In this document: positions 6,222 to 59,988 of the stretch, one piece after another | How the letters are laid out: the number at the start of each line of letters is the position of its first letter | How positions within the stretch are numbered: position 1 is the stretch's first letter | NCBI RefSeq assembly: GCF_006345805.1 | Contig: NC_043013.1 | Span: 39,866,001 to 39,930,000, forward strand | Length of the DNA stretch: 64,000 nt | Reading direction: 5' to 3' | Source of the DNA: Octopus sinensis | Lineage: Eukaryota | The notes under the pieces: generated by a model | Databases searched by the model: none | What the model saw: only the letters and a program-made list of their open reading frames with translations | What the model was told of the DNA's origin: nothing | Position numbers and translations under genes: made by a program

Positions 6222-6505
6222 TAGCATTATTAAATCTCAGGGCGAGATGTAAACAGTAACCGCTCGACAATGTAAAGTATAAAAGCCATCTCAATATGGC
6301 TAACCACAAAGTGGGGGTGTTACTGTAGCTTTTTAGCCCCAGGAGATCATCGTCTCCAGCTGGCTTTAGACACACTTTCTGTGCCCTTGAAGTATTTGCA
6401 AAGGGAGGCCATCCCTTCCTCGCAAGCCTGAGTGATACGCACGGACCGGTTTCGAGATTATTGTCTCTTATCAACGGGCGGTAACCACCAGGTCACGATG
6501 AAAGA
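6222..6505 (-). mobile_element. Penelope-like pseudo-LTR remnant between (TA)n tracts
   Basis: Carries a minimal hammerhead motif and aligns by eye with the 48.5-kb unit (GACACAC...CTGTG, AAGGGAGG blocks). Confidence 0.65.
6438..6480 (-). ncRNA. Minimal type I hammerhead ribozyme motif, U3:A8 core variant
   Basis: CGCCCG-UUGAUAA-GAGA caauaa UCUC-GAAACCGGUC-CGUGCG: stem I 5/6 bp, stem II 4 bp, palindromic stem III ACCGGU, GUC cleavage triplet. Confidence 0.7.
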
Positions 6506-18456: not shown

Positions 18457-21400
18457 AAGAATAAAAAAAAGGGTGGCGTAGGTTTTCGATCAAAAGGGAT
18501 CGTAAAAGGGAAAAAAGAACAAAAAAAGGAAAAGAAAAAAGAAAAGAGGGAAAAGGAACAAAGGAAAAGAAAAATTTAAAAAGAAGAAAAAAGAGGAAAA
18601 AAAGGGGAAGAGAAAAAGAAAACGATCAATAGGGATCGTGTATCACAGTGTCATGATGTATGGTGTAAAGGGGAAAGCAAGTAAGGTTTATCCGTGGGAA
18701 GAAAAGCCTACGAAAAAGACCACGGTAAACTTGGTCATATTGTTATATGTTACCACATTTGTTTGCAAGTGGGTAACCCTCTGTTTTCAATTTCTGGGTT
18801 CATAGGATCATGCTCAAGGTGGCTTCGTCATTCATACGTGCCATCCTTGCTACATTCACCCATCTTTTTTTAAAACGTTCGCTAGACAAAACTTGCCTCT
18901 CTACTCTCACTTTCCTTTTCAAGTGGTACTTGAAGATGTTGATGAGAGGTTGACCAGAGAGGAAAGTGTTTGTCTCCAATCCTTTCAGACGCATCCACCA
19001 GATACTTTCTTTCGCCAGCCACAAGGATGATGAATAGCTCTTCTTTCCCGTTTGAAGGAAGGAGGCGTGACAATATTGACGATAGACTCAGCTGATAAAC
19101 CGACTCGTCCCACACGTGACAGCAGTTGTTCGACATAAGCCCACAGGTCGGAAATTGTTGACACTGAACGAGTGCGTGCAGAACGGTTTCGTCGCTCTGA
19201 CCGCATCTCGGGCAGGTCGGCCCCGTGTTTCTCGAGCCGTGTCTGTAGAGCTTATCCCGAACGGGTAGCGCTTCTCGGTAGCACTGCCAGGCCAGGGATC
19301 TCTGGAAGTTGTCCATGGGCCCTGGCCCGAAAGTCGTCCCGAACAGGCGGGTCAGGTACTCCTCGTCGACGTCCAGGTTCGCCCCGAGCTCGTCGTCGTA
19401 CCTCCCCTCCACTAAACCCCTATAGAATGCTTTGGTTGTGTTGAAGTCACTTAAGGTCGACCCAGGACGGCAGAGTTGCTTGAGAGCAACGCGACACTCG
19501 CGGTGCCATTCGCCCTTCCTCGGCTCTCTTTTTGATCCACGACTGCAGTTCGGTCATGGAGACGAGCTGCGGGAAAGCGTGCCTCACAAACGGCGACCAC
19601 ACCTGTTCACCGTCGTCTACATAGAGCCAGAGATGTCGCAGTCTCAGCGCGTGTCTGCGCATCATCAACCACGGCATGCCCAGCCCTCCTTTTAACGGGT
19701 GTTGACAGCAAATGGATCGCCTGACCATCGGACGCATCCTTTCCACAAGAAGCGAAAGAGGATGCGTTGTAGTTTGGTGATGATAGGGTCGGGACAATGT
19801 ACGACGGTCAGGCGGTAGTAGATGACGGACGCGATGTACGTGTTCGCCACCTCCGCGCGACCTTTTAGGGACAGTTTCCTCTCGCCTATTGCCGGCGAGA
19901 GTGACCACCCTACTCGTTATCTCGTTCCAGTTCTTCTCCACTTGGAGGTCCGGACCAAACCAGACCCCGAGCAACTCAACCGGGCCGTCGGTCCAGCGTC
20001 CCACGACGGAGGCGCTGGTGGACGGCATGGGCTTGCTTCTCCAGGTGCCTAGTCGCAAGCCCACTGACTTTTCCCGGTTGATTTTCGCTCCTGTCACCGC
20101 TTCGTAGTTTTTCAGTGTCTCGCCGACCAGCTCGATGTGCTCGTGGCTAGACACTATGACGGTGACGTCGTCCGCGTATGCAGACACGCTCGTCCCGCAT
20201 CCCAATTCTCGCGGGATGCCCCTTAGAGTCGCCAGCTTCCGCAGTAGTGGCTCAATACGTATAGAAGCGCCGAGAGGGGGCATCCCTGACGGACCGAACG
20301 TGCAATGTCGAAAGGTCTCGATAGATGTCCATTTACGCGAATTACCGAACGGATGCCTCTGTACAAGGCAGCTATCCAGCCGCGGAAGACGGGCCCGAAA
20401 CCAGCCGCTCTCAGGACTGCCTCCAAGTATCGATGGTCCACCCTATCAAAGGCTTTCGATTGATCCAAGTTGATCAGGGCCCCACCCATGCCAGGTTCGT
20501 TAACTACCCTGTCTATGATGTAGCGCATCAGATGGAGGTTGTCATTGATGGTCCGGCCTGGCACGGCGCATGTTTGCGCCTTGTCGACCAGTTTCTCGAT
20601 AACAACGCCAACCTCTTGGCTAGCACCTTGGCCAAAATTTTCAAGTCTGCATTAAGCAGAGTGATGGGCCTAAAGTTATCTATACATTTCCCTTGTTTAG
20701 ATCTTTCTCAGCAGTGTTACGGCTCCTCGGCTCACAAAACCAGGAATGCCCCCGTTTTGCTGCCAGTTGCAGTACACCGCCGCCAAGAGATCTCCAAACA
20801 AGTCTGGCATACAATTGTAAAGCTCGTAGGGTAGACCATCCAAACCCGGTGATTTGTCCCTCGAGCATTCTGCCATCGCTTCCCGCACTTCCGCCGCCGT
20901 GATGGCACCTTCGCAGCACCCTGCCTTTCTTGTCGAGTGTCGTGGTAGGCTATGTAGGTAGGCACTGAAGTCCACCCTACGTTCTTGCCCTCCACTCGTT
21001 CCGAACAGTCGGGCAAAATGCTGCTGAAAGGCCTCACACATTTTACTTGGCTCGAGCAATTCGCGCCCCTGTTCATCTACCAGTGACCGAATGGTGGCTT
21101 TGTTGCCCTGTTGCGCCTCTGCCACCCGGGCCTCTCTCGCGGCTCCAACACCTTCGTTCCTTAGAGCACACATCCTAGCTCTGACAGCACATCCTTCGGT
21201 TTGGCGTTGAAGGTTTGGTCGAGGGCCAACCTCGCCGCCAAAACGTCGGTGCGATGCCGCTTCTAATGCCTCTTCTAGCTTCTTAACTAGCTCACCTCTA
21301 CTCTATTTCTATCTATGGCTAGTGCTTTGCTGTACCTAATCGCTTCTGCTTTTACTGCTCTCTTGAGGGCAAACCACCATTTGTTGTTGATGATGGCTCC

Positions 21401-23241: not shown

Positions 23242-23728
23242 GTACATTGTTTTGTCTTGGTATAAAAGATGGGCTACAGCAAATATTCTGCTCAATACCA
23301 CAGATTTGCTTGTCAGTTGTTTGACCTTAACCAGTTGAGCATGTCCCTTAGTGGCTAACGATATGTGCATCTCTGATCATGAGCAGAAGTAGTGGGGAAG
23401 CATCATAGCCATGTGTTGAGAGGGATTCTTTGGAGTTTGAATAATTCTCCTCTGGAAACATAGGTGTTTCGTTCAACATCCTAAAGCAACCCTTATTCAG
23501 GGACCTTTTGAGCAGGATGGGCTACTCGACCTGAAGAAAATTCTAACTGGGCCCCACCTGCAAGGTCACGTGCTGTTTATCTTGATATGAGATCACCATG
23601 TCGCGCACATATGGTTGTGATGCATGTGCCTGGTGTACCTTTATCAGACGGGTAGTCATGGTGGGTATGCTGGGCTTCGTATATTTTACCCCAGTGTCAC
23701 TTTGATGGCATGCTCTGCTCTCTCACTC
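23242..23728 (+). mobile_element. (AAT)n-embedded 556-bp non-coding element, 5'-truncated copy
   Basis: Highly similar to 56785-57340; ends CTCTCTCACTC-(AAT)n. Confidence 0.85.
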
Positions 23729-24166: not shown

Positions 24167-24801
<635 letters not shown>

Positions 24802-25031: not shown

Positions 25032-25421
25032 CCAGTTGTGACCCTTAGTGGCTCACGATATGCGAATCTCTGATCATGAGCAGAAGTAGTGAGTAAACAT
25101 CATAGCTATCTGAGGAATTCTTTGGGGTTTGAATAAGCCCCTTCTGGAAATATGGGGATTCTGTTCTTCATCCTTAAACAAACCTTATTCATGAACCTTT
25201 TGAGCGGGTTGGGTTACTCGACATGAAGAAAATTCTAATCGAGCCCCACCTACAATGTCATGCGTTGTTTATCATGATATAAGATCACCTTGTCATGCAG
25301 GTATCGTTGTGATGCATGTGCCTGGTGTACCCTTGTCAGACGGGCAGTCATGATGGGTATATTGGGTTTCGTATATTTGTACGCCAGTGTTACTTTGATT
25401 ATATGCGCTGCTCTCTCATAC
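25032..25421 (+). mobile_element. Older diverged copy of the 556-bp element
   Basis: Collinear, ends CTCTCTCATAC-AATAAT, followed by (GAA)n at 25430-25625. Confidence 0.8.
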
Positions 25422-29085: not shown

Positions 29086-29505
29086 TCTTATTTCTTTATT
29101 GCCCACAAAGGGCTACACACAGACGGGACAAACATGGATAGACAAACGGATTAAGTCGATTATATCGACCCCAGTGCGTCACTGGTACTTATTTAATCGA
29201 CCCCGAAAGGATAAAATACAAAGTCGACGTCGGCAGAATTTGAACTTAGAACGTAGCGGCAGGCCAAAAACCTATTTCTTTACTATCCACAAGGAGCTAC
29301 ACACAGAGGGGACAAACAAGGACAGATAAATGGATTAAGTCGATTATATCGATCCCAGTGCGTAACTGGTAGTTAATTTATCGACCACGAAAGGATGAAA
29401 GGCAAAGTCGACCTCGGTGGAATTTGAACTCAGAACGTAACGGCAGACGAAATACGGCTACGCATTTCGCCCGGCGTGCTAATGTTTCTGCCAGCTCGCT
29501 GCCAT
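29086..29505 (-). mobile_element. Tandem dimer of SINE family B, both units with the Tx1-like tail X
   Basis: Full unit 29505-29273, then a second unit starting GGTTTTTGGCCTGCC; tails ...GTAGCCCTTTGTGGGCAATAAAGAAAT. Confidence 0.85.
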
Positions 29506-37469: not shown

Positions 37470-37690
37470 TAGCAAAAACGTTAGCACGCCGGGCGAAATG
37501 CGTAGCCGTATTTCGTCTGCTGCTACGTTCTGAGTTCAAATTCCGCCAAGGTCGACTTTGCCTTTCATCCTTTCGGCGTCGATAAATTAAGTGCCAGTTA
37601 CGCACTAGGATCGATGTAATCGACTTAATCCTTTTGTTTGTCCTTGTTTGTCCCCTCTATGTTTAGCCTCTTGTGGGCAATAAATAAGAA
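37470..37690 (+). mobile_element. SINE family B (tail X) directly after a SINE A 5' half (37340-37467)
   Basis: ACGTTAGCACGCCGGGCGAAATGC...GCCTTTCATCCTTTCG...TTGTGGGCAATAAATAAG. Confidence 0.85.
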
Positions 37691-38332
37691 ACAGTGTGGA
37701 TGCCAGTCATATGCTCGTATGTGTGTGTGTGTGTGTGCGTGTGTGCTTATGCGTGTATATGTGCGTATGTGTATGTATGTGCGTCAGCCCACCTAGCCAG
37801 TGTTATGTACGCATGTGTGTGTGTGCGTGTGCTTGTGTGCGTGCGTGTGTGTGTGTCAAGCCAATGTGTGTGTATGCATGAAACCAGTGTTGCTTTGTTA
37901 ATGTCCCTGTAATTTAGCGCTCCGGCGAAACACACCGATAGAATAAGTACCACTCACACACACACACACACACACACACAAGTACACGTACACACACGCG
38001 CATACACGCACACATACACACGCACACATACAGTAAGGAAAATCGATGGAAAATATTAGAAACGCAGACAAGGCCCGTGTCGTTTCGAAGTTTGCTTCGT
38101 AATCACATGACTTAAAATAGGTACCAAAGTGCATTTATTCGACTTATCGAACAAAGAGGTGTTCCAGCATTGCCGCAATCCAATAACAGAAACAAATGAC
38201 ATATTAAAGGAGCAATAAATTTTAACTTTTTTATTAGAATACCTAGTTAGGTGTGGTGCATTTGTTTCGGTTTATATGAGTTCTCTAACGATACATGAAT
38301 CCAATCTCAATCTATTGTGCTTTTAGTTCGTA

Positions 38333-38723
38333 CTAGCAGTATCGCCCGGCGTTGCTCGGGTTTGTAAGGGAAATAACTATATAAGCATTTTTAGAGATGT
38401 AAAGTATAATAGCTATCTCAATATGGCTAACCACAAAGGGGGGGGGGGTGTTACTGTAACTTTTTACGTTCTGAGATTTAATAATACATTTTTAGAGAGT
38501 TAATTCCCTTATATAATAGCAAAAAAATGCATTAAAAATGGGAAAAAAATGATGGTAAATTTTTTTTTTAAATCGTAGACGCGCGCTAATACCCAGCAGG
38601 GCTCGATGTGAATCACGACTACAAGATACCCGGTTTTGGTTACACTGCACCGCAAAATGTGGGAGTAGTTAGGAATCTAAATCGTAGGAGACAGACACAC
38701 AACTTCACTTTTATATATAAAGA
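38333..38723 (-). mobile_element. Non-autonomous Helitron
   Basis: Minus strand: A|TCTTTATATATAAAAGTG ... CCCGAGCAACGCCGGG hairpin ... CTGCTAG|T. Canonical 5'-TC, 3'-CTAG and A^T insertion site. Confidence 0.9.
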
Positions 38724-43554: not shown

Positions 43555-44358
43555 CTGTCCATAGACAAAATTCCGTGCGGCACTGAATTTTGTCAGTGGA
43601 CAGGTCACGGTCTCAAAGAGGCGAAAATATGTTGACAAATAAAATTTAAATGTTGAAGTGGATCTAACGGATTTTTTTTTTGTGTATGTGTGTGTGTGTT
43701 TCTAAATGGCTTATAAACATCTTCCACGCTGAAATTATATATCCGTTTATTCACCGAATCCCTCCAGCTTATATTGGTTCTCAACTCAATTCATTCATTT
43801 CGAGTTATTGTTACCTATCTTTTTATTTTATTTTAGTGTGTTGTTACATCTTAATGTAAATGATTTTGAGATTGTGCTATAAATGATTAAGCTCAATTAT
43901 ACCATGTCATTTATAATTAGTTATAATAATTTGGGAACAGTATAGCAAAAGATGAAGGAACAGAGATGGTGAAAATATAAAGGACGAAACACTTCGGGGG
44001 CTCGGAAAATTGATAGAAAAAATTCAAGAGACACAGAAATAATAAATTAAGGGACAAATGAGGTAAATAATTTATGATAAAATGTAACAAGGCAAAAGAC
44101 AATGGTATATAACAATAAATCAAAATGAATGCATTAGGCCGGGGGATTATGTGAATAAACGGATATATAAAAAATGTAAGTGAATAAATATACAAAAATT
44201 AATTAAATGATTAATTAATTAGCTAATTATATAATATAATGTGCAATGGGATGAAATAAAGTGAAATGAATTCAGATAAGTAAGAATTAAGAACGTGATT
44301 GATAAAATTCAAAGAATAAAATTTCATATGGGAGAAGATAAATAGAAATAAGTTGAGA

Positions 44359-44651
44359 CGAGGTCGACTTTGCCTTTCATCTTTTTGTGGTCGATTAAAT
44401 AAGTACCAGTTACGCACTGGGTTCGATATAATCGACTTAATCCGTTTGTCTGTCCTTGTCTGTCCCCTCTGTGTGTAGCCCATTGTGGGTAGTAAATAAA
44501 TAAAGGTTCTGTGTTCAAATTCCGCTGAGGTTGACTTTGCCTTTCATCCTTTCGTGGTCCATAAATTAAGTACCAGTTGCGTACTGGGGTCGATGTAATC
44601 GACTAGCCCCTTCCCCAAAAAAATTAGAGCCTTGTGCCTAGAGTAGAAACG
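44359..44651 (+). mobile_element. SINE family B dimer (tail X unit then tail Y unit)
   Basis: Two Nin cores in tandem; the first ends ...GTAGCCCATTGTGGGTAGTAAAT, the second ...CCTTGTGCCTAGAGTAGAAA. Confidence 0.85.
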
Positions 44652-48497: not shown

Positions 48498-48669
48498 ATA
48501 TTAATTGTTATCGCCATATTAATATGATAGTCTTATAGATATAAGACTAAAGCTGTCGCTGATTAGCTCCATGAGGCCATCGCCTTACGCTAGCTATTTG
48601 ACACACAAACTGTGTCCATTATAACCTTCGAACAAGGGAGGTCAGCCGCTTCACACTGCCAGTCAGACA

Positions 48670-48712
48670 GCTACAGACGCGTTTCAGGGTATTTGCCCTT
48701 TGTCAATGTAGC
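48670..48712 (-). ncRNA. Minimal type I hammerhead ribozyme motif, U3:A8 variant
   Basis: GCUACA-UUGACAA-AGGG caaaua CCCU-GAAACGCGUC-UGUAGC: perfect 6-bp stem I, 4-bp stem II, palindromic ACGCGU, GUC site. Confidence 0.8.
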
Positions 48713-48915
48713 GTAGTCAGATCCAGCAGGTGTCGCCACTGATCGTCTCTGTTCGAAGGTTTTATTTACCTAGTTTCGGTGGAATACATCCACTTGTTTT
48801 CAATAATAGAAATATTAAAATTACTAAGTCTCTCTAAAAGAGATTGCGGCAGCGTTACTGGAAATTAATTGTTATCGCCATATTAATATGACAGTCTTAT
48901 AGATATAAGACTAAA

Positions 48916-48958
48916 GCTACAGTGACAAAGGGCAAATACCCTGAAACGCGTCTGTAGC
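48916..48958 (+). ncRNA. Second copy of the same hammerhead on the opposite strand (position 3 = G)
   Basis: GCUACA-GUGACAA-AGGG caaaua CCCU-GAAACGCGUC-UGUAGC. Confidence 0.65.
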
Positions 48959-49469
48959 TGTCTGACTGGCAGTGTGAAGCGGCCGACCTCCCTTGTTCGA
49001 AGGTTATAATGGACACAGTTTGTGTGTCAAATAGCTAGCGTAAGGCGATGGCCTCATGGAGCTAATCAGCGATAGCTTTAGTCTTATATCTATAAGACTG
49101 CCATATTAATATGGTGATAACAATTAATTTCCAGTAACGCTGCCGCAATCTCTTTTAGAGAGACTTAGTAATTTTAATATTTCTATTATATATATATATA
49201 TACATAGGTATATCATTAATTCATCTTCATTTAATTTATATGTATATGGGCGAGGCGCATGGCCTAGTGGTTAAAGAGATGGTGGTTTCAATTCTTGGTC
49301 TTGGAGATACATTTTATTCTTGAGCGAGCGAAGTACTTCTTCTCATCTCGTTCTGCGATCACGTCGATACCTGACTCGTGGCACGCCGTGCACCTGTTCA
49401 AGCAACGTCAAGCCTAATGTACAATCACATACATTTGACCACTGTAAATAAGTCACTTGTGCGGGTACT

Positions 49470-53921: not shown

Positions 53922-54615
53922 AACGATGACGATGATGGTGGGAGCGGTTGTAGTGGTGGCGGTGGTAGTAGTGGAGATTGCTGAGGCAGTGACGGTGGTG
54001 GTGGTGGTGGAGATTGTTGAGGTAGTGGTGGTACTGGTGCTGGTCGTGGTTTTGGTGGTGGTGATTTGGTGGTGGTGGTGGTGGTGGTGGTGGTGGCGGT
54101 AAAAAGTCACAAGTTTTGGATAATGCATTTAGACAAAGAAATCGATCGCCTCTCGTTCTTCATTTTATCAAAAACCCCGGAAGGATGAAAATCGAGATTT
54201 ACCTCAGTGAGATTTGAACGGAAACATTGAAGGAATCGGGCTAGAACGTCAAAAACCGCAAGGCATTTTGTCGGATGCTCTACCGATTCAGCTACTTTAT
54301 CGCTCTAACACATATTAATATATTCAGCTGAGAACTACGACGATGATTACCCGAATGGCTGGATCTGTAGTTAGCAACATCTCTTAGTTCGATTCCTTCA
54401 AAGTTGATCCTTGCCTGTTTAGCCTTTCAAAACATTAAAACAACAACCAATCGGGTAGTTGAACCGATTACAGTCGCCCCGTGACATCCACTAAAATATG
54501 CATTTTTGTGCTGAAGTTATTAATCAACATATACCCATAACATTGTGTTGCTTTGTTTGGGTATTTAGTAATGCTTTTTGTGGGTTTGTTTTGATTTGCT
54601 ATTTTCACAGGCATA

Positions 54616-55012
54616 AGGTGGTGAGCTGGCAGAAACGTTAGCACGCAGGGCGAAATGCGTAGCCGTATTTCGTCTGCCGATACGTTCTGAGTTCAAATTC
54701 CGCCAAGGTCGACTTTGCCTTTCATCCTTTCGGGGTTGATAAATAACGTACCAGTTTCGCACTGGAGTCGATGTTATCGACTTAATCCGTTTGTCTGTCC
54801 TTGTTTGTCCCTTCTGTGTGTAGCCCCTAGTGGACAGTAAAGAAATAGGTATTTCGTCTGTCTTTGCGTTCTGAGATCAAATTCTGCCTAGGTCGACTTT
54901 GTATTTCATCGTTTCGGGGTCGATAAATTAAGTACCAGCTACGCACTGGGGTCGATCTAATCGACTGGCCACTGCCCCCAAAATTTCAGGCCTTGTGCCT
55001 AGAGTAGGAAAG
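54616..55012 (+). mobile_element. SINE family B dimer (full tail-X unit plus 5'-truncated tail-Y unit)
   Basis: Junction AAAGAAATA|GGTATTTCGTCTG at 54847/54848. Confidence 0.9.
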
Positions 55013-55376
55013 TATATTCATAGGCATGTCAGTAAAGTGGTTAGGGAATTCACTTTGGAGCCACGAGGTCATGGTTTCGATCCCAATGAGTATCATCTTA
55101 GGTGATGGCTTTTTTTTATAACTTCTTGTCTACCCAAGTCTTGTAAATGAAACTGGGGTAGACGGAAACTTAAAAACCTCTTTAACATATTGTCCACCTA
55201 TGTACTCCTAATTCAAAGGGCCATTCTTACCACCCACTGTTTTACGATGATTTTTGCCCTAGGATTACGTTAAGAGGACAAATGTCTGCAGAATACTCAG
55301 CTATCACCTTCTCTCCTCTTTCTCTTTGCACCAGCAGGTCGAAAGAGCAACTTCCAGGTGACTCACCCATTTACAC

Positions 55377-56786: not shown

Positions 56787-57340
56787 GCCCTGATGCAGTA
56801 CCAGGCAGTGGCTCTCATGGCTTCTGATCTTAACTGATTGGAAGTGTTATCATGTACATTGTTTTGTCTTGGTATAAAAGATGGGCTACAGCAAATATTC
56901 TGCTCAATACCACAGATTTGCTTGTCAGTTGTTTGACCTTAACCAGTTGAGCATGTCCCTTAGTGGCTGACGATATGTGCATCTCTGATCACGAGCAGAA
57001 GTAGTGGGGGAGCATCATGGCCATGTGTTGAGAGGGATTCTTTGGAGTTTGAATAATTCATCTCTGGAAACATAGGTGTTTCGTTCAACATCCTAAAGCA
57101 ACCCTTATTCAGGGACCTTTTGAGCGGGATGGGCTACTCAACCTGAAGAAAATTCTAACTGTGCCCCACCTGCAAGGTCATGTGCTGTTTATCTTGATAT
57201 GAGATCACCATGTCGCGCACATATGGTTGTGATGCATGTGCCTGGTGTACCTTTATCAGGCGGGTAGTCATGATGGGTATATTGGGCTTCGTATATTTTA
57301 CCCCAGTGTCACTTTGATGGCATGAACTGCTCTCTCACTC
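56785..57340 (+). mobile_element. (AAT)n-embedded 556-bp non-coding element, full length
   Basis: (AAT)n-ATGCCCTGATGCAGTACCAGGC ... CTCTCTCACTC-(AAT)n. Confidence 0.88.
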
Positions 57341-58790: not shown

Positions 58791-59371
58791 ACTCTCCCTC
58801 TTTGTTCCTCTCTTGGCTCTCTATCTCTCTCTCTTGTCCCTCCCTCTCTCTCTCTCTCTCTCCCTCTCTCTCCCTCTCTCTCTTTCTCTGATGTCTAATA
58901 CAAGCATCTCTATGTTATATGAACGGTTGTTTCAGCGTAAATACATGAGCGGTTGCACAAGCTACAACTTTGTTGTGTGTAATTCCGTAATGTACAATCA
59001 CGTATGTGCAGTTGCGTAGATGCATTATGCATGCGCAACTGCAGCTGTTACGTGCTACTGCAATGAGTAGAAATGTGTGAAACTGTATTCTGTTGCAGCT
59101 GTATTAAATGTCGGCTTTTTTTCTTTATATGATGCAATTGTGAAAATCTGTAATATACGTAGCGCTAATGCAAGTAGGCCTGTGCATATGCATTATAAAT
59201 AAGTTGCAATGCAGTATCATGCATGTGCATGTGAACGTGCTTATGTGCAACTGTTATATATATATTAAACTGCAATGAGTGCAATTACATTATATGTTGG
59301 TTTACATACAAATTTCGTACATAAAATCTATGTTACATTCATACACATTTAAGGACATGTGCTATATATAT

Positions 59372-59988
59372 TCTTTTCCACTCTAGGCACAAGGTGCGAA
59401 ATTTTGGGAGAGGGGGCCAGTCGATTACATCGATCCCATTACGCAACTGGTACTTAATTTAACGACCCTGAAAGGATGAAAGGCAAAGTGGACCTGGGCG
59501 GAATTTGAATTCAGAACGTAAAGACAGACGAAATACCTATTTCTTTATTACCCACAAGGGGCTAAACACAGAGCGGACAAACAAGGACAGACATAGGTAT
59601 TAAGTCGATTACATCGACCCCAGTACGTAACTGGTACTTAATTTATCGACCCCGAAAGGATGAAAGGCAAAGTCGACCTCGGCGGAATTTAAACTCAGAA
59701 CGTAAAGACAGACGAAATACCGCTAAGCATTTCGCCCGGCGTGCTAACGTCTCTTATTTCTTTACTGCCCACAAGGGGCTACACACAGAGGGGACAAACA
59801 AGGACAGACAAACGGATTAAGTCGATTATATCGACCCCAGTGCGTAACTGGTACTTATTTAATCGACCTCGAAAGGATGAAAGGCAAAGTCGACTTCGGC
59901 GGAATTTGAACTCAGAACATAACGGCAGACGAAATACTGCTAAGCATTTCGCCCGGCGTGCTAACGTTTCTCCCAGCTCGCTGCCTTA
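59372..59988 (-). mobile_element. SINE family B trimer (tail X, tail X, tail Y)
   Basis: Three Nin cores; junctions at ~59752 (GAAATAAG|AGACGTTAGCACG) and 59537 (GAAATA|GGTATTTCG). Confidence 0.9.

What the first reader, a model, noticed from the sequence alone, without database searches (positions are those of the whole stretch)
48670..48712. Hammerhead lineage with a compensatory U3:A8 core pair and fully covarying stems
Seen: 48670-48712(-) is GCUACA UUGACAA AGGG..CCCU GAAACGCGUC UGUAGC and 6438-6480(-) is CGCCCG UUGAUAA GAGA..UCUC GAAACCGGUC CGUGCG. They sit at equivalent positions in two diverged but recognisably homologous repeats. Stem I, stem II and the palindromic stem III differ in sequence yet keep pairing and length, while both have UUGAYAA rather than CUGANGA. 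Established: C3 and G8 form a Watson-Crick pair in the active hammerhead, U3:A8 is a tolerated rare variant, and minimal PLE hammerheads with a palindromic stem III cleave as dimers. Inference: the double change is a fixed family trait under selection rather than decay, and CUGANGA-based searches would overlook it.
Basis: partly seen in the sequence, partly recalled or inferred. Interest (0 to 1): 0.72.

Follow-up and report, generated by a model that had tools for sequence, protein, structure and literature searches.

The report
Retrozyme hammerheads with flip-flopping core pair
These are two copies of small, protein-free jumping repeats whose predicted self-cutting RNA motif carries an already published U-A core pair in place of C-G; related repeat subfamilies in the same genome carry C-G, C·A or U·G there, so the pair likely switched more than once, and cutting is untested.

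Summary
Both motifs are at the stated coordinates and beat chance. They are type I hammerheads with canonical geometry (not 'minimal' ones) in two dispersed 355-365 bp non-coding tandem-repeat families, A and B. These fit non-LTR retrozymes with Penelope-style insertions. U3:A8 is fixed in each family (38 of 41 and 32 of 33 copies), so it is not decay. A genome-wide pattern gives U:A 1188, C:G 582, C·A 58 and U·G 40. The variant is published (Perreault 2011; Cervera 2014, about 1,300 Schistosoma hits). This scan noted it before in other genomes, and noted the retrozyme/Penelope pattern elsewhere in this genome. Two corrections: B's stem I has a consensus C·U mismatch, and A and B are not one exclusive lineage (AU p=0.0035). 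B groups with a young C3:G8 family; A groups with C3:G8 and C3·A8 families. One older subfamily spread with an unpaired C3·A8 core (23 of 30 rows). Autonomous RT+GIY-YIG elements here also carry U3:A8. Cleavage and expression are untested. Verdict: a new member of a known kind, with a useful natural series of core-pair intermediates.

The parts
48670..48712 (-). Family A type I hammerhead: stem I 48712-48707/48675-48670, U3 48706, A8 48701, stem II 48699-48686 (4 bp, 6-nt loop), palindromic helix III 48682-48677, C17 48676 (predicted cut between 48676 and 48675)
48657..48727 (-). Extended helix I of the family A hammerhead: UAC bulge at 48715-48713 and distal stem (canonical, loop-loop type geometry)
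   Evidence: fold; distal pairs covary; same layout as Rfam HH9 aligned to the B copy
48551..48915 (-). One full 365-bp family A monomer, non-coding and strongly self-paired as a circle (-120.1 kcal/mol versus -81.0 +/- 4.9 for 100 shuffles)
48500..48551 (-). Start of a second monomer, ending at the family's first preferred 3' end, next to (AT)n
48916..49189 (+). Inverted arm of the same insertion, ending at the family's second preferred 3' end, next to (AT)n
   Evidence: (inverted repeat I4)
48916..48958 (+). Inverted hammerhead copy with private G3 and no loop-1 bulge or distal stem; predicted inactive
   Evidence: (locus L005 has the same junction with U3)
6438..6480 (-). Family B type I hammerhead: U3 6474, A8 6469, C17 6444, stem I with C·U mismatch (6477/6441)
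   Evidence: Rfam HH9 35.2 bits, gathering score 52
6223..6496 (-). 5'-truncated family B copy (monomer about 355 bp elsewhere), single hammerhead, ending near the second preferred 3' end beside (AT)n

Best explanation
The two motifs are type I hammerhead folds with a U3:A8 core pair, fixed in each of two related 355-365 bp non-coding tandem-repeat families (non-LTR retrozyme type); they are predicted to self-cut as dimers and are likely copied into AT microsatellites by a borrowed Penelope-type enzyme. SHOWN: motif, covariation, tandem and inverted arrays, two preferred 3' ends, fixation of U3:A8 in A and B, and the other core states in sister subfamilies. INFERRED mechanism: a multimeric transcript lets two hammerheads pair through the 6-bp palindrome of helix III; U3:A8 replaces C3:G8 in positioning residue 8 (probably with a slower rate); cleavage after C17 frees monomers that may circularise; an RT+GIY-YIG protein nicks AT-rich DNA and starts reverse transcription at one of two internal sites about 200 and 255 nt past stem II, which leaves two-armed insertions. 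INFERRED history: the 3:8 pair changed state several times in this superfamily (U:A in A, B, E, D1; C:G in C and F; C·A in D2, D4, D5; U·G in B2, D3). Pairing is favoured, since every young sampled family has it, but it was not strictly required for spread. The window copies are likely inert: each has one intact motif per strand, and A's would fold back onto its inverted arm in a read-through transcript.
For: Motif and controls. Fixation: (A: 38 U:A, 1 G·A, 1 C·A, 1 A·A of 41, with 10 further hits not covering position 3; B: 32 U:A, 1 U·G of 33, 5 not covering). Genome pattern counts 1188/582/58/40 with reversed-pattern controls of 2, 2, 0, 0. Tandem and inverted arrays. Ends: A 14+17 of 35 ends at two sites, 29 of 35 followed by (AT)n; B 20+12 of 40, 10 of 40 followed by (AT)n. 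Unconstrained co-folding of two copies gives the double-hammerhead fold for both A and B. Trees on each flank alone: B+B2+E+F together (100/100 upstream; 89/96 downstream); C3:G8 family C nearest to C·A rows. AU tests reject one C3:G8 clade (p 4e-6) and an A+B clade (p 0.0035). Family F is C3:G8 in 37 of 38 rows. Autonomous RT+GIY-YIG ORFs of 775-781 aa are present. Literature: U3:A8 natural and reported active in vitro (PMC3088659); retrozymes cleave better as dimers and give circRNA (PMC7229834); two internal RT starts and AT-rich nicking (PMC11167929).
Against: No cleavage or expression data for these elements. [quoted passage not shown] Catalytically dead hammerheads did not block Penelope insertion in vitro (PMC11167929). 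A C3·A8 subfamily that also has A·A at the base of stem II spread. Family A gets no Rfam hammerhead hit at E up to 10. The autonomous elements sampled share no flank homology with A or B, so the driver is unidentified. Trees are unrooted, use 140-200 columns and have weak inner branches among the D subfamilies; mixed arrays such as L098 show that subfamilies recombine.
Confidence: 0.78

Rival explanations
1. The U3:A8 motif is a weak or non-cutting fold, kept for RNA structure or protein recognition; position 3/8 drifts and cleavage is not needed for mobility.
For: The C3·A8 subfamily spread (23 of 30 rows; 20 of 49 pattern hits). Dead hammerheads do not block insertion in vitro. No U:A rescue in one mutational scan. 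Naiad PLEs proliferate without hammerheads.
Against: The catalytic letters and C17 are invariant in 17 of 17 subfamily representatives while the stems turn over. The young sampled families (A1-A3, B, E at 2-3% divergence; F at 96-99% identity) all have a Watson-Crick 3:8 pair. The autonomous PLE motif has U3 in 1032 of 1042 hits and A8 in all 100 listed.
Confidence: 0.12
2. U3:A8 arose once and the pattern on the trees comes from template switching that moved hammerheads between subfamilies, not from repeated substitutions.
For: Mixed arrays exist (L098 holds two subfamilies). Some A subfamilies change place between the upstream and downstream trees.
Against: Both flanks independently separate A from B/E/F. 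The stems next to the core match each subfamily's own lineage; for example C·A rows share stem letters with their flank relatives.
Confidence: 0.08
3. Chance match, or decay of a C3:G8 family.
For: Both changes are transitions, the commonest private change in these copies.
Against: 0 of 100 shuffles; fixation in A and B; 1188 genome hits versus 2 control hits.
Confidence: 0.01

Closest known systems
Metazoan non-LTR retrozymes (Cervera and De la Pena 2020, PMC7229834, parts 2-3 of 6 read plus term search; Li et al. 2026, bioRxiv 10.64898/2026.07.22.740005, part 1 of 5 plus passages)
   Same: Tandem non-coding monomers of 150-450 bp (mussel 350-390 bp), a canonical type I hammerhead per unit, short palindromic helix III, strong self-pairing, coexistence with autonomous PLEs.
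   Different: U3:A8 core (the terms U3-A8, C3-G8 and covariation have 0 hits in PMC7229834's main text; supplements not seen); no expression or cleavage data here; two-armed insertions with two fixed ends.
U3-A8 minimal hammerheads of Cercyon PLEs, Schistosoma mansoni (Cervera and De la Pena 2014, PMC4209133, parts 1-2 of 4 read)
   Same: Same core covariation, found by homology after the standard descriptor missed it; about 1,300 hits; dimer model.
   Different: Those have 7-8 bp helix II, 4-5 bp helix I and lie in pLTRs. Here helix I is 6 bp with a bulge, helix II is 4 bp, and the unit has no ORF. The autonomous PLE motif found in this genome is the closer counterpart.
Natural U3:A8 hammerheads (Perreault et al. 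2011, PMC3088659, passages read)
   Same: C3:G8 covaries to U3:A8 in several natural hammerheads; described as already shown active in vitro.
   Different: No retroelement subfamily series and no propagated mismatch states in the passages seen.
Rfam RF02275 Hammerhead_HH9
   Same: Family B aligns over the whole model, with the loop-1 bulge, 6-nt loop 2 and distal helix I (E 1.2e-7).
   Different: 35.2 bits versus gathering score 52; shorter helix III; U3:A8; family A is not detected.

Membership tests
Type I hammerhead ribozyme | Core U4 G5 A6 A9, G12 A13 A14, A15.1-U16.1, H17 | tested here: met
   Present in both window copies; invariant in 17 of 17 representatives
Type I hammerhead ribozyme | Watson-Crick pair between positions 3 and 8 | tested here: met
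   U:A in both copies and in 38 of 41 and 32 of 33 family copies; not met in subfamilies D2, D4, D5 (C·A); wobble in B2 and D3
Type I hammerhead ribozyme | Three helices supported by covariation | tested here: met
   15 of 17 pairs with double changes, 91.7% of cells paired; helix III stable only as an intermolecular duplex
Type I hammerhead ribozyme | Self-cleavage after H17 | not testable with these tools
   No assay
Rfam RF02275 (HH9) | Score at or above the gathering threshold of 52 bits | tested here: not met
   B 35.2 bits; A no hit at E up to 10
PLE minimal hammerhead (min-HHR) | Long helix II (7-8 bp), short helix I, poorly defined loop 1, extra base before stem II | tested here: not met
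   6-bp helix I with UAC bulge and 4-bp helix II against the description
PLE minimal hammerhead (min-HHR) | Located in a pLTR flanking an RT-EN ORF | tested here: not met
   Units repeat head to tail without an ORF. The one long ORF followed up beside a B copy was only translated; by eye it is zinc-knuckle-like and not RT/GIY-YIG, with no family scan run.
Non-LTR retrozyme | Tandem 150-450 bp units, each with a type I hammerhead | tested here: met
   365-bp trimer in L003/L062, 356-bp dimer in L053
Non-LTR retrozyme | Dispersed, non-coding, highly self-paired monomer | tested here: met
   Many loci on many contigs; circular fold z about -8 for A (B not folded)
Non-LTR retrozyme | Expressed as linear and circular monomer RNA | tested here: inconclusive
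   Only contigs of runs guessed to be RNA were available
Non-LTR retrozyme | No LTR, PBS or PPT; long target duplications when present | not tested
   Microsatellite targets obscure duplications; no dedicated test run
Penelope-type mobilisation | Partial tandems, inverted 5' arm, two fixed 3' ends, AT-rich targets | tested here: met
   against PMC11167929 and bioRxiv 2021.04.23.441226; the (AT)n link is strong for A (29 of 35) and weak for B (10 of 40)
Penelope-type mobilisation | Identified autonomous partner sharing pLTR or tail sequence | tested here: inconclusive
   RT+GIY-YIG elements are present, but 7 long-ORF loci out of 149 GIY-YIG matches showed no flank homology; hits in L239 and L241 were separate retrozyme insertions

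The most novel reading that the evidence does not exclude
This repeat superfamily is a fossil record of a catalytic base pair evolving through viable intermediates. An ancestral U3:A8 core went to canonical C3:G8 twice, once through a C3·A8 subfamily that itself spread to perhaps a couple of hundred copies and once in a lineage that also holds a U3·G8 subfamily. So hammerhead cleavage is tunable, or only partly needed, for Penelope-driven retrozyme mobility, and natural matched backgrounds exist for all four core states.
Probability: 0.45. Interest if true: 0.62.

Novelty: new member of a known kind. Interest (0 to 1): 0.38.

Why it matters
The U3:A8 swap itself is known. Here it outnumbers C3:G8 two to one under one fixed pattern (a count that favours young families and misses family F), so standard descriptors undercount hammerheads in this genome. 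The more useful result is the natural series U:A, C·A, U·G and C:G in homologous, age-ranked subfamilies. It allows a direct test of whether ribozyme activity predicts retroelement success, which is an open question for Penelope-like elements, and of how a tertiary base pair crosses a mismatch state.

Tried and rejected
RNA evidence: no RNA holder was listed on record. Contigs of three runs guessed to be RNA and one large unlabelled run cover the family but cannot show strand, ends or circles; not used as evidence. A-to-I editing as the source of the 3/8 changes: inherited A>G+T>C versus G>A+C>T was 47:51 against 211:311 for private changes (Fisher p 0.18), with no strand bias (25 versus 22); not supported. 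CpG decay as the source of U3 or A8: C3 is not in a CpG, and C7A8 is typical only of the youngest A subfamily; rejected. An ORF upstream of B copy L032 as the autonomous parent: its translation shows no RT or GIY-YIG motif by eye (no family scan); rejected. Rfam miRNA hits are microsatellite and inverted-repeat artefacts. The pattern table is not a set of independent events: copies cluster in families, young families are favoured, and family F (two extra bases in helix III) is missed, so the odds ratio of 298 is not used as a test. Only R/Y states of positions 3 and 8 were counted genome-wide. Trees used subsets: 97 of 144 connected rows, 59 rows, 53 rows, 49 of 64 rows; 18 of 162 rows were unconnected. 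Four papers were not held: Lunse 2017, Przybilski and Hammann 2007, Nelson and Uhlenbeck 2008, Hammann 2012. Rate data for U3:A8 and the mismatches were therefore not seen. PMC2553840 gave 0 term hits. A sequence look-up in earlier findings returned nothing.

Full report
Observation. Both stretches read as quoted. A general type I descriptor finds three motifs in the window: 48670-48712(-), 6438-6480(-) and an inverted copy with G3 at 48916-48958(+). None of 100 shuffles gave a strict hit. The two repeats are homologous, 64% over 160 nt. One correction: stem I of the 6438 copy has a C·U mismatch that is the family norm. The window lies in a 2.72-Gb, microsatellite-rich genome; earlier notes of this scan call it an octopus genome (not checked by me).

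Anatomy. Both motifs have a 6-bp helix I continued by a UAC bulge and a distal stem, a 4-bp helix II with a 6-nt loop and a 6-nt palindrome at helix III. Family B aligns along the whole Rfam HH9 model but below its threshold (35.2 versus 52 bits); family A is not detected. This is the canonical geometry described in PMC4209133, not the minimal PLE form. Two copies co-folded without constraints give the double-hammerhead fold with a 6-bp intermolecular helix III for A and for B. Across one representative of each of 17 subfamilies the catalytic letters are invariant and 15 of 17 pairs show double changes.

The carrier. Family A is a 365-bp unit and family B a unit of about 355 bp. Both are dispersed and young (2.4-3% median divergence from subfamily majority), and occur as partial tandems, often with an inverted arm. 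3' ends fall at two sites per family: 14 and 17 of 35 ends in A, 20 and 12 of 40 in B; 29 of 35 and 10 of 40 are followed by (AT)n. The window's A insertion is typical: one arm ends at each site and both abut (AT)n. The A monomer folds as a circle about 8 standard deviations below shuffles. This fits non-LTR retrozymes (PMC7229834) and the two internal reverse-transcription starts and AT-rich nicking shown for a Penelope protein (PMC11167929). That the enzyme is a Penelope protein is inference. Earlier notes of this scan report the same pattern for other copies in this genome; I had reached it before that look-up.

Is U3:A8 fixed? Yes. In homology-picked, de-duplicated copies it stands in 38 of 41 (A) and 32 of 33 (B); 10 and 5 further hits did not cover position 3. 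These are the 30 best-scoring loci per family, so they lean young. One fixed-geometry pattern gives, genome-wide, 1188 U:A, 582 C:G, 58 C·A and 40 U·G, with 0-2 control hits each. The counts are not independent events, favour young families and miss family F.

Is it one lineage? No. Most C3:G8 hits sampled are homologous to A and B downstream of the motif (144 of 162 rows in one component). Trees built on the flanks alone, so that the core cannot steer them, give two groups. One holds B (U:A), B2 (U·G, 4 pattern hits, one in the trees), E (U:A) and F (C:G in 37 of 38 rows). The other holds A (U:A), C (C:G) and the older D subfamilies. AU tests reject a single C3:G8 clade (p 4e-6), an A+B clade (p 0.0035) and an A+B+B2+E clade (p 0.0027); I named these groups after seeing earlier trees, so the p values are optimistic. 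The rows nearest to family C are C·A rows on both flanks, with moderate support. A hand count on the subfamily tree needs about 7 single changes from a U:A ancestor and about 9 from C:G. That is weak, and no root is available. Recombination between subfamilies is a real caveat (L098).

Mismatch states were propagated. In the D lineage a pattern open at positions 3 and 8 gave, by my hand count, 23 U:A, 20 C·A, 5 U·G, 1 A·A and 0 C:G of 49 hits; two of the U:A hits belong to lineage A. A homology search with one C·A copy returned C·A in 23 of 30 rows that covered the core (the query and tandem units included; 2 C:G rows come from other subfamilies; 1 U:A, 2 A·A, 1 C·U, 1 C·C). At about 10% divergence decay cannot give that (binomial p 1e-17). 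This subfamily also has A·A at the base of stem II. A hand estimate from 20 exact hits and about 20 fixed letters is roughly 200 copies. D subfamilies are 9.5-12% diverged, C 8-9.5%, and A, B, E 2-6% (groups are small and partly mixed). So the young sampled families all pair at 3:8, and the unpaired state belongs to older, smaller ones; the age of B2 is unknown.

Autonomous elements. The genome holds RT+GIY-YIG ORFs of 775-781 aa. In 6 of 7 long-ORF loci examined the 3' region has its own hammerhead-like motif with UUGAUAA, a 5-bp stem II and a 4-nt palindrome centre, shortly before a (TA)n junction (three by scan, three read by eye). Its pattern has 1042 hits, 10 of them without U3, and A8 in all 100 listed. 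These elements show no flank homology to A or B, so they are candidates for the driver, not shown to be it.

How it likely works. Multimeric or paired transcripts form dimeric hammerheads and cut after C17; monomers may circularise; a Penelope protein copies the RNA from one of two internal starts into nicked AT-rich DNA. U3:A8 keeps the tertiary pair that orients residue 8, which is implicated in catalysis (PMC9901934 lists it as catalytic). Against full activity: that study saw rescue only by the G:C swap in a type III hammerhead (passages; heat map not seen), while PMC3088659 states that U3:A8 ribozymes were shown active in vitro (passages). Dead hammerheads did not block Penelope insertion in vitro. 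The two window insertions are likely inert.

What is known. U3:A8 in nature: PMC3088659. In PLE minimal hammerheads, about 1,300 hits in Schistosoma mansoni, found after the standard descriptor missed them: PMC4209133. Earlier notes of this scan list U3:A8 in at least 8 genomes, including retrozymes and one case of two origins (unchecked). I found no paper on U3:A8 in canonical retrozyme hammerheads, on cephalopod retrozymes, or on propagated C·A intermediates in searches. The library lacks most subscription papers, four key papers were not held, and I opened no supplementary files (those of PMC4209133 and PMC7229834 may list such motifs; those of the bioRxiv preprints are closed). Papers seen: PMC4209133 parts 1-2 of 4; PMC7229834 parts 2-3 of 6 and a term search; PMC11167929 parts 1-2 of 4; bioRxiv 10.64898/2026.07.22.740005 part 1 of 5 and passages; passages of bioRxiv 10.1101/2021.04.23.441226, PMC7151607, PMC3884650, PMC6765202, PMC3088659 and PMC9901934; a term search without hits in PMC2553840. 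Hammerhead position numbering is recalled standard usage; the subfamily labels A-F are mine.

Verdict. Real, functional-looking and family-fixed, but a known variant in a known kind of element. The part worth following is the natural series of four core states. Interest 0.38.

Noticed in passing
L235:5150-5200, L237, L238, L240, L241 (+) and L236 (-), 3' of the ORF: Autonomous RT+GIY-YIG (Penelope-like) families carry their own U3:A8 hammerhead-like motif near the 3' end; 1042 pattern hits, 1032 with U3; elements end in (TA)n.
   Followed up: partly
L237:674-2110 (+): A 479-aa open frame lies just upstream of, and overlaps, the 781-aa RT-EN ORF; not scanned. Unusual for a single-ORF Penelope element.
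   Followed up: no
L239:4948-5304 (+); L242-L271: Young family F (352-bp units) with C3:G8, an 8-nt helix III palindrome and a GUC instead of UAC before stem I; a close relative of family B.
   Followed up: partly
L033, L042, L045, L075 and L032, upstream of the hammerhead: Several retrozyme copies break off just upstream of the hammerhead and continue into other sequence; in L032 this is a zinc-knuckle-like ORF, and a similar ORF lies in L075. It may be an element that inserts there, as earlier scan notes suggest; only L032/L061 was read.
   Followed up: partly
L098: One tandem array holds units of two different A subfamilies, pointing to template switching between RNAs.
   Followed up: no
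L074, L091, L122, L130, L133, L135, L143, L144, L150, L161: Hammerhead-like hits with different stem II sequences and no downstream homology to the superfamily; probably other, older families.
   Followed up: no
window 38397-38466 (-): 70-bp fragment related to family B (89%) without the hammerhead.
   Followed up: partly
window 19447-20442 (-) and 18882-21302: Stop-free frames of 200-331 aa in the GC-richer part of the window; not examined.
   Followed up: no
window 23408-23707, 24481-24780, 25100-25399, 57020-57319; and 29088-29497, 37472-37694, 44349-44503, 54614-55023, 59362-59988: Two further dispersed repeat families, one with inverted and tandem arrangements; no hammerhead found by the scan.
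   Followed up: no
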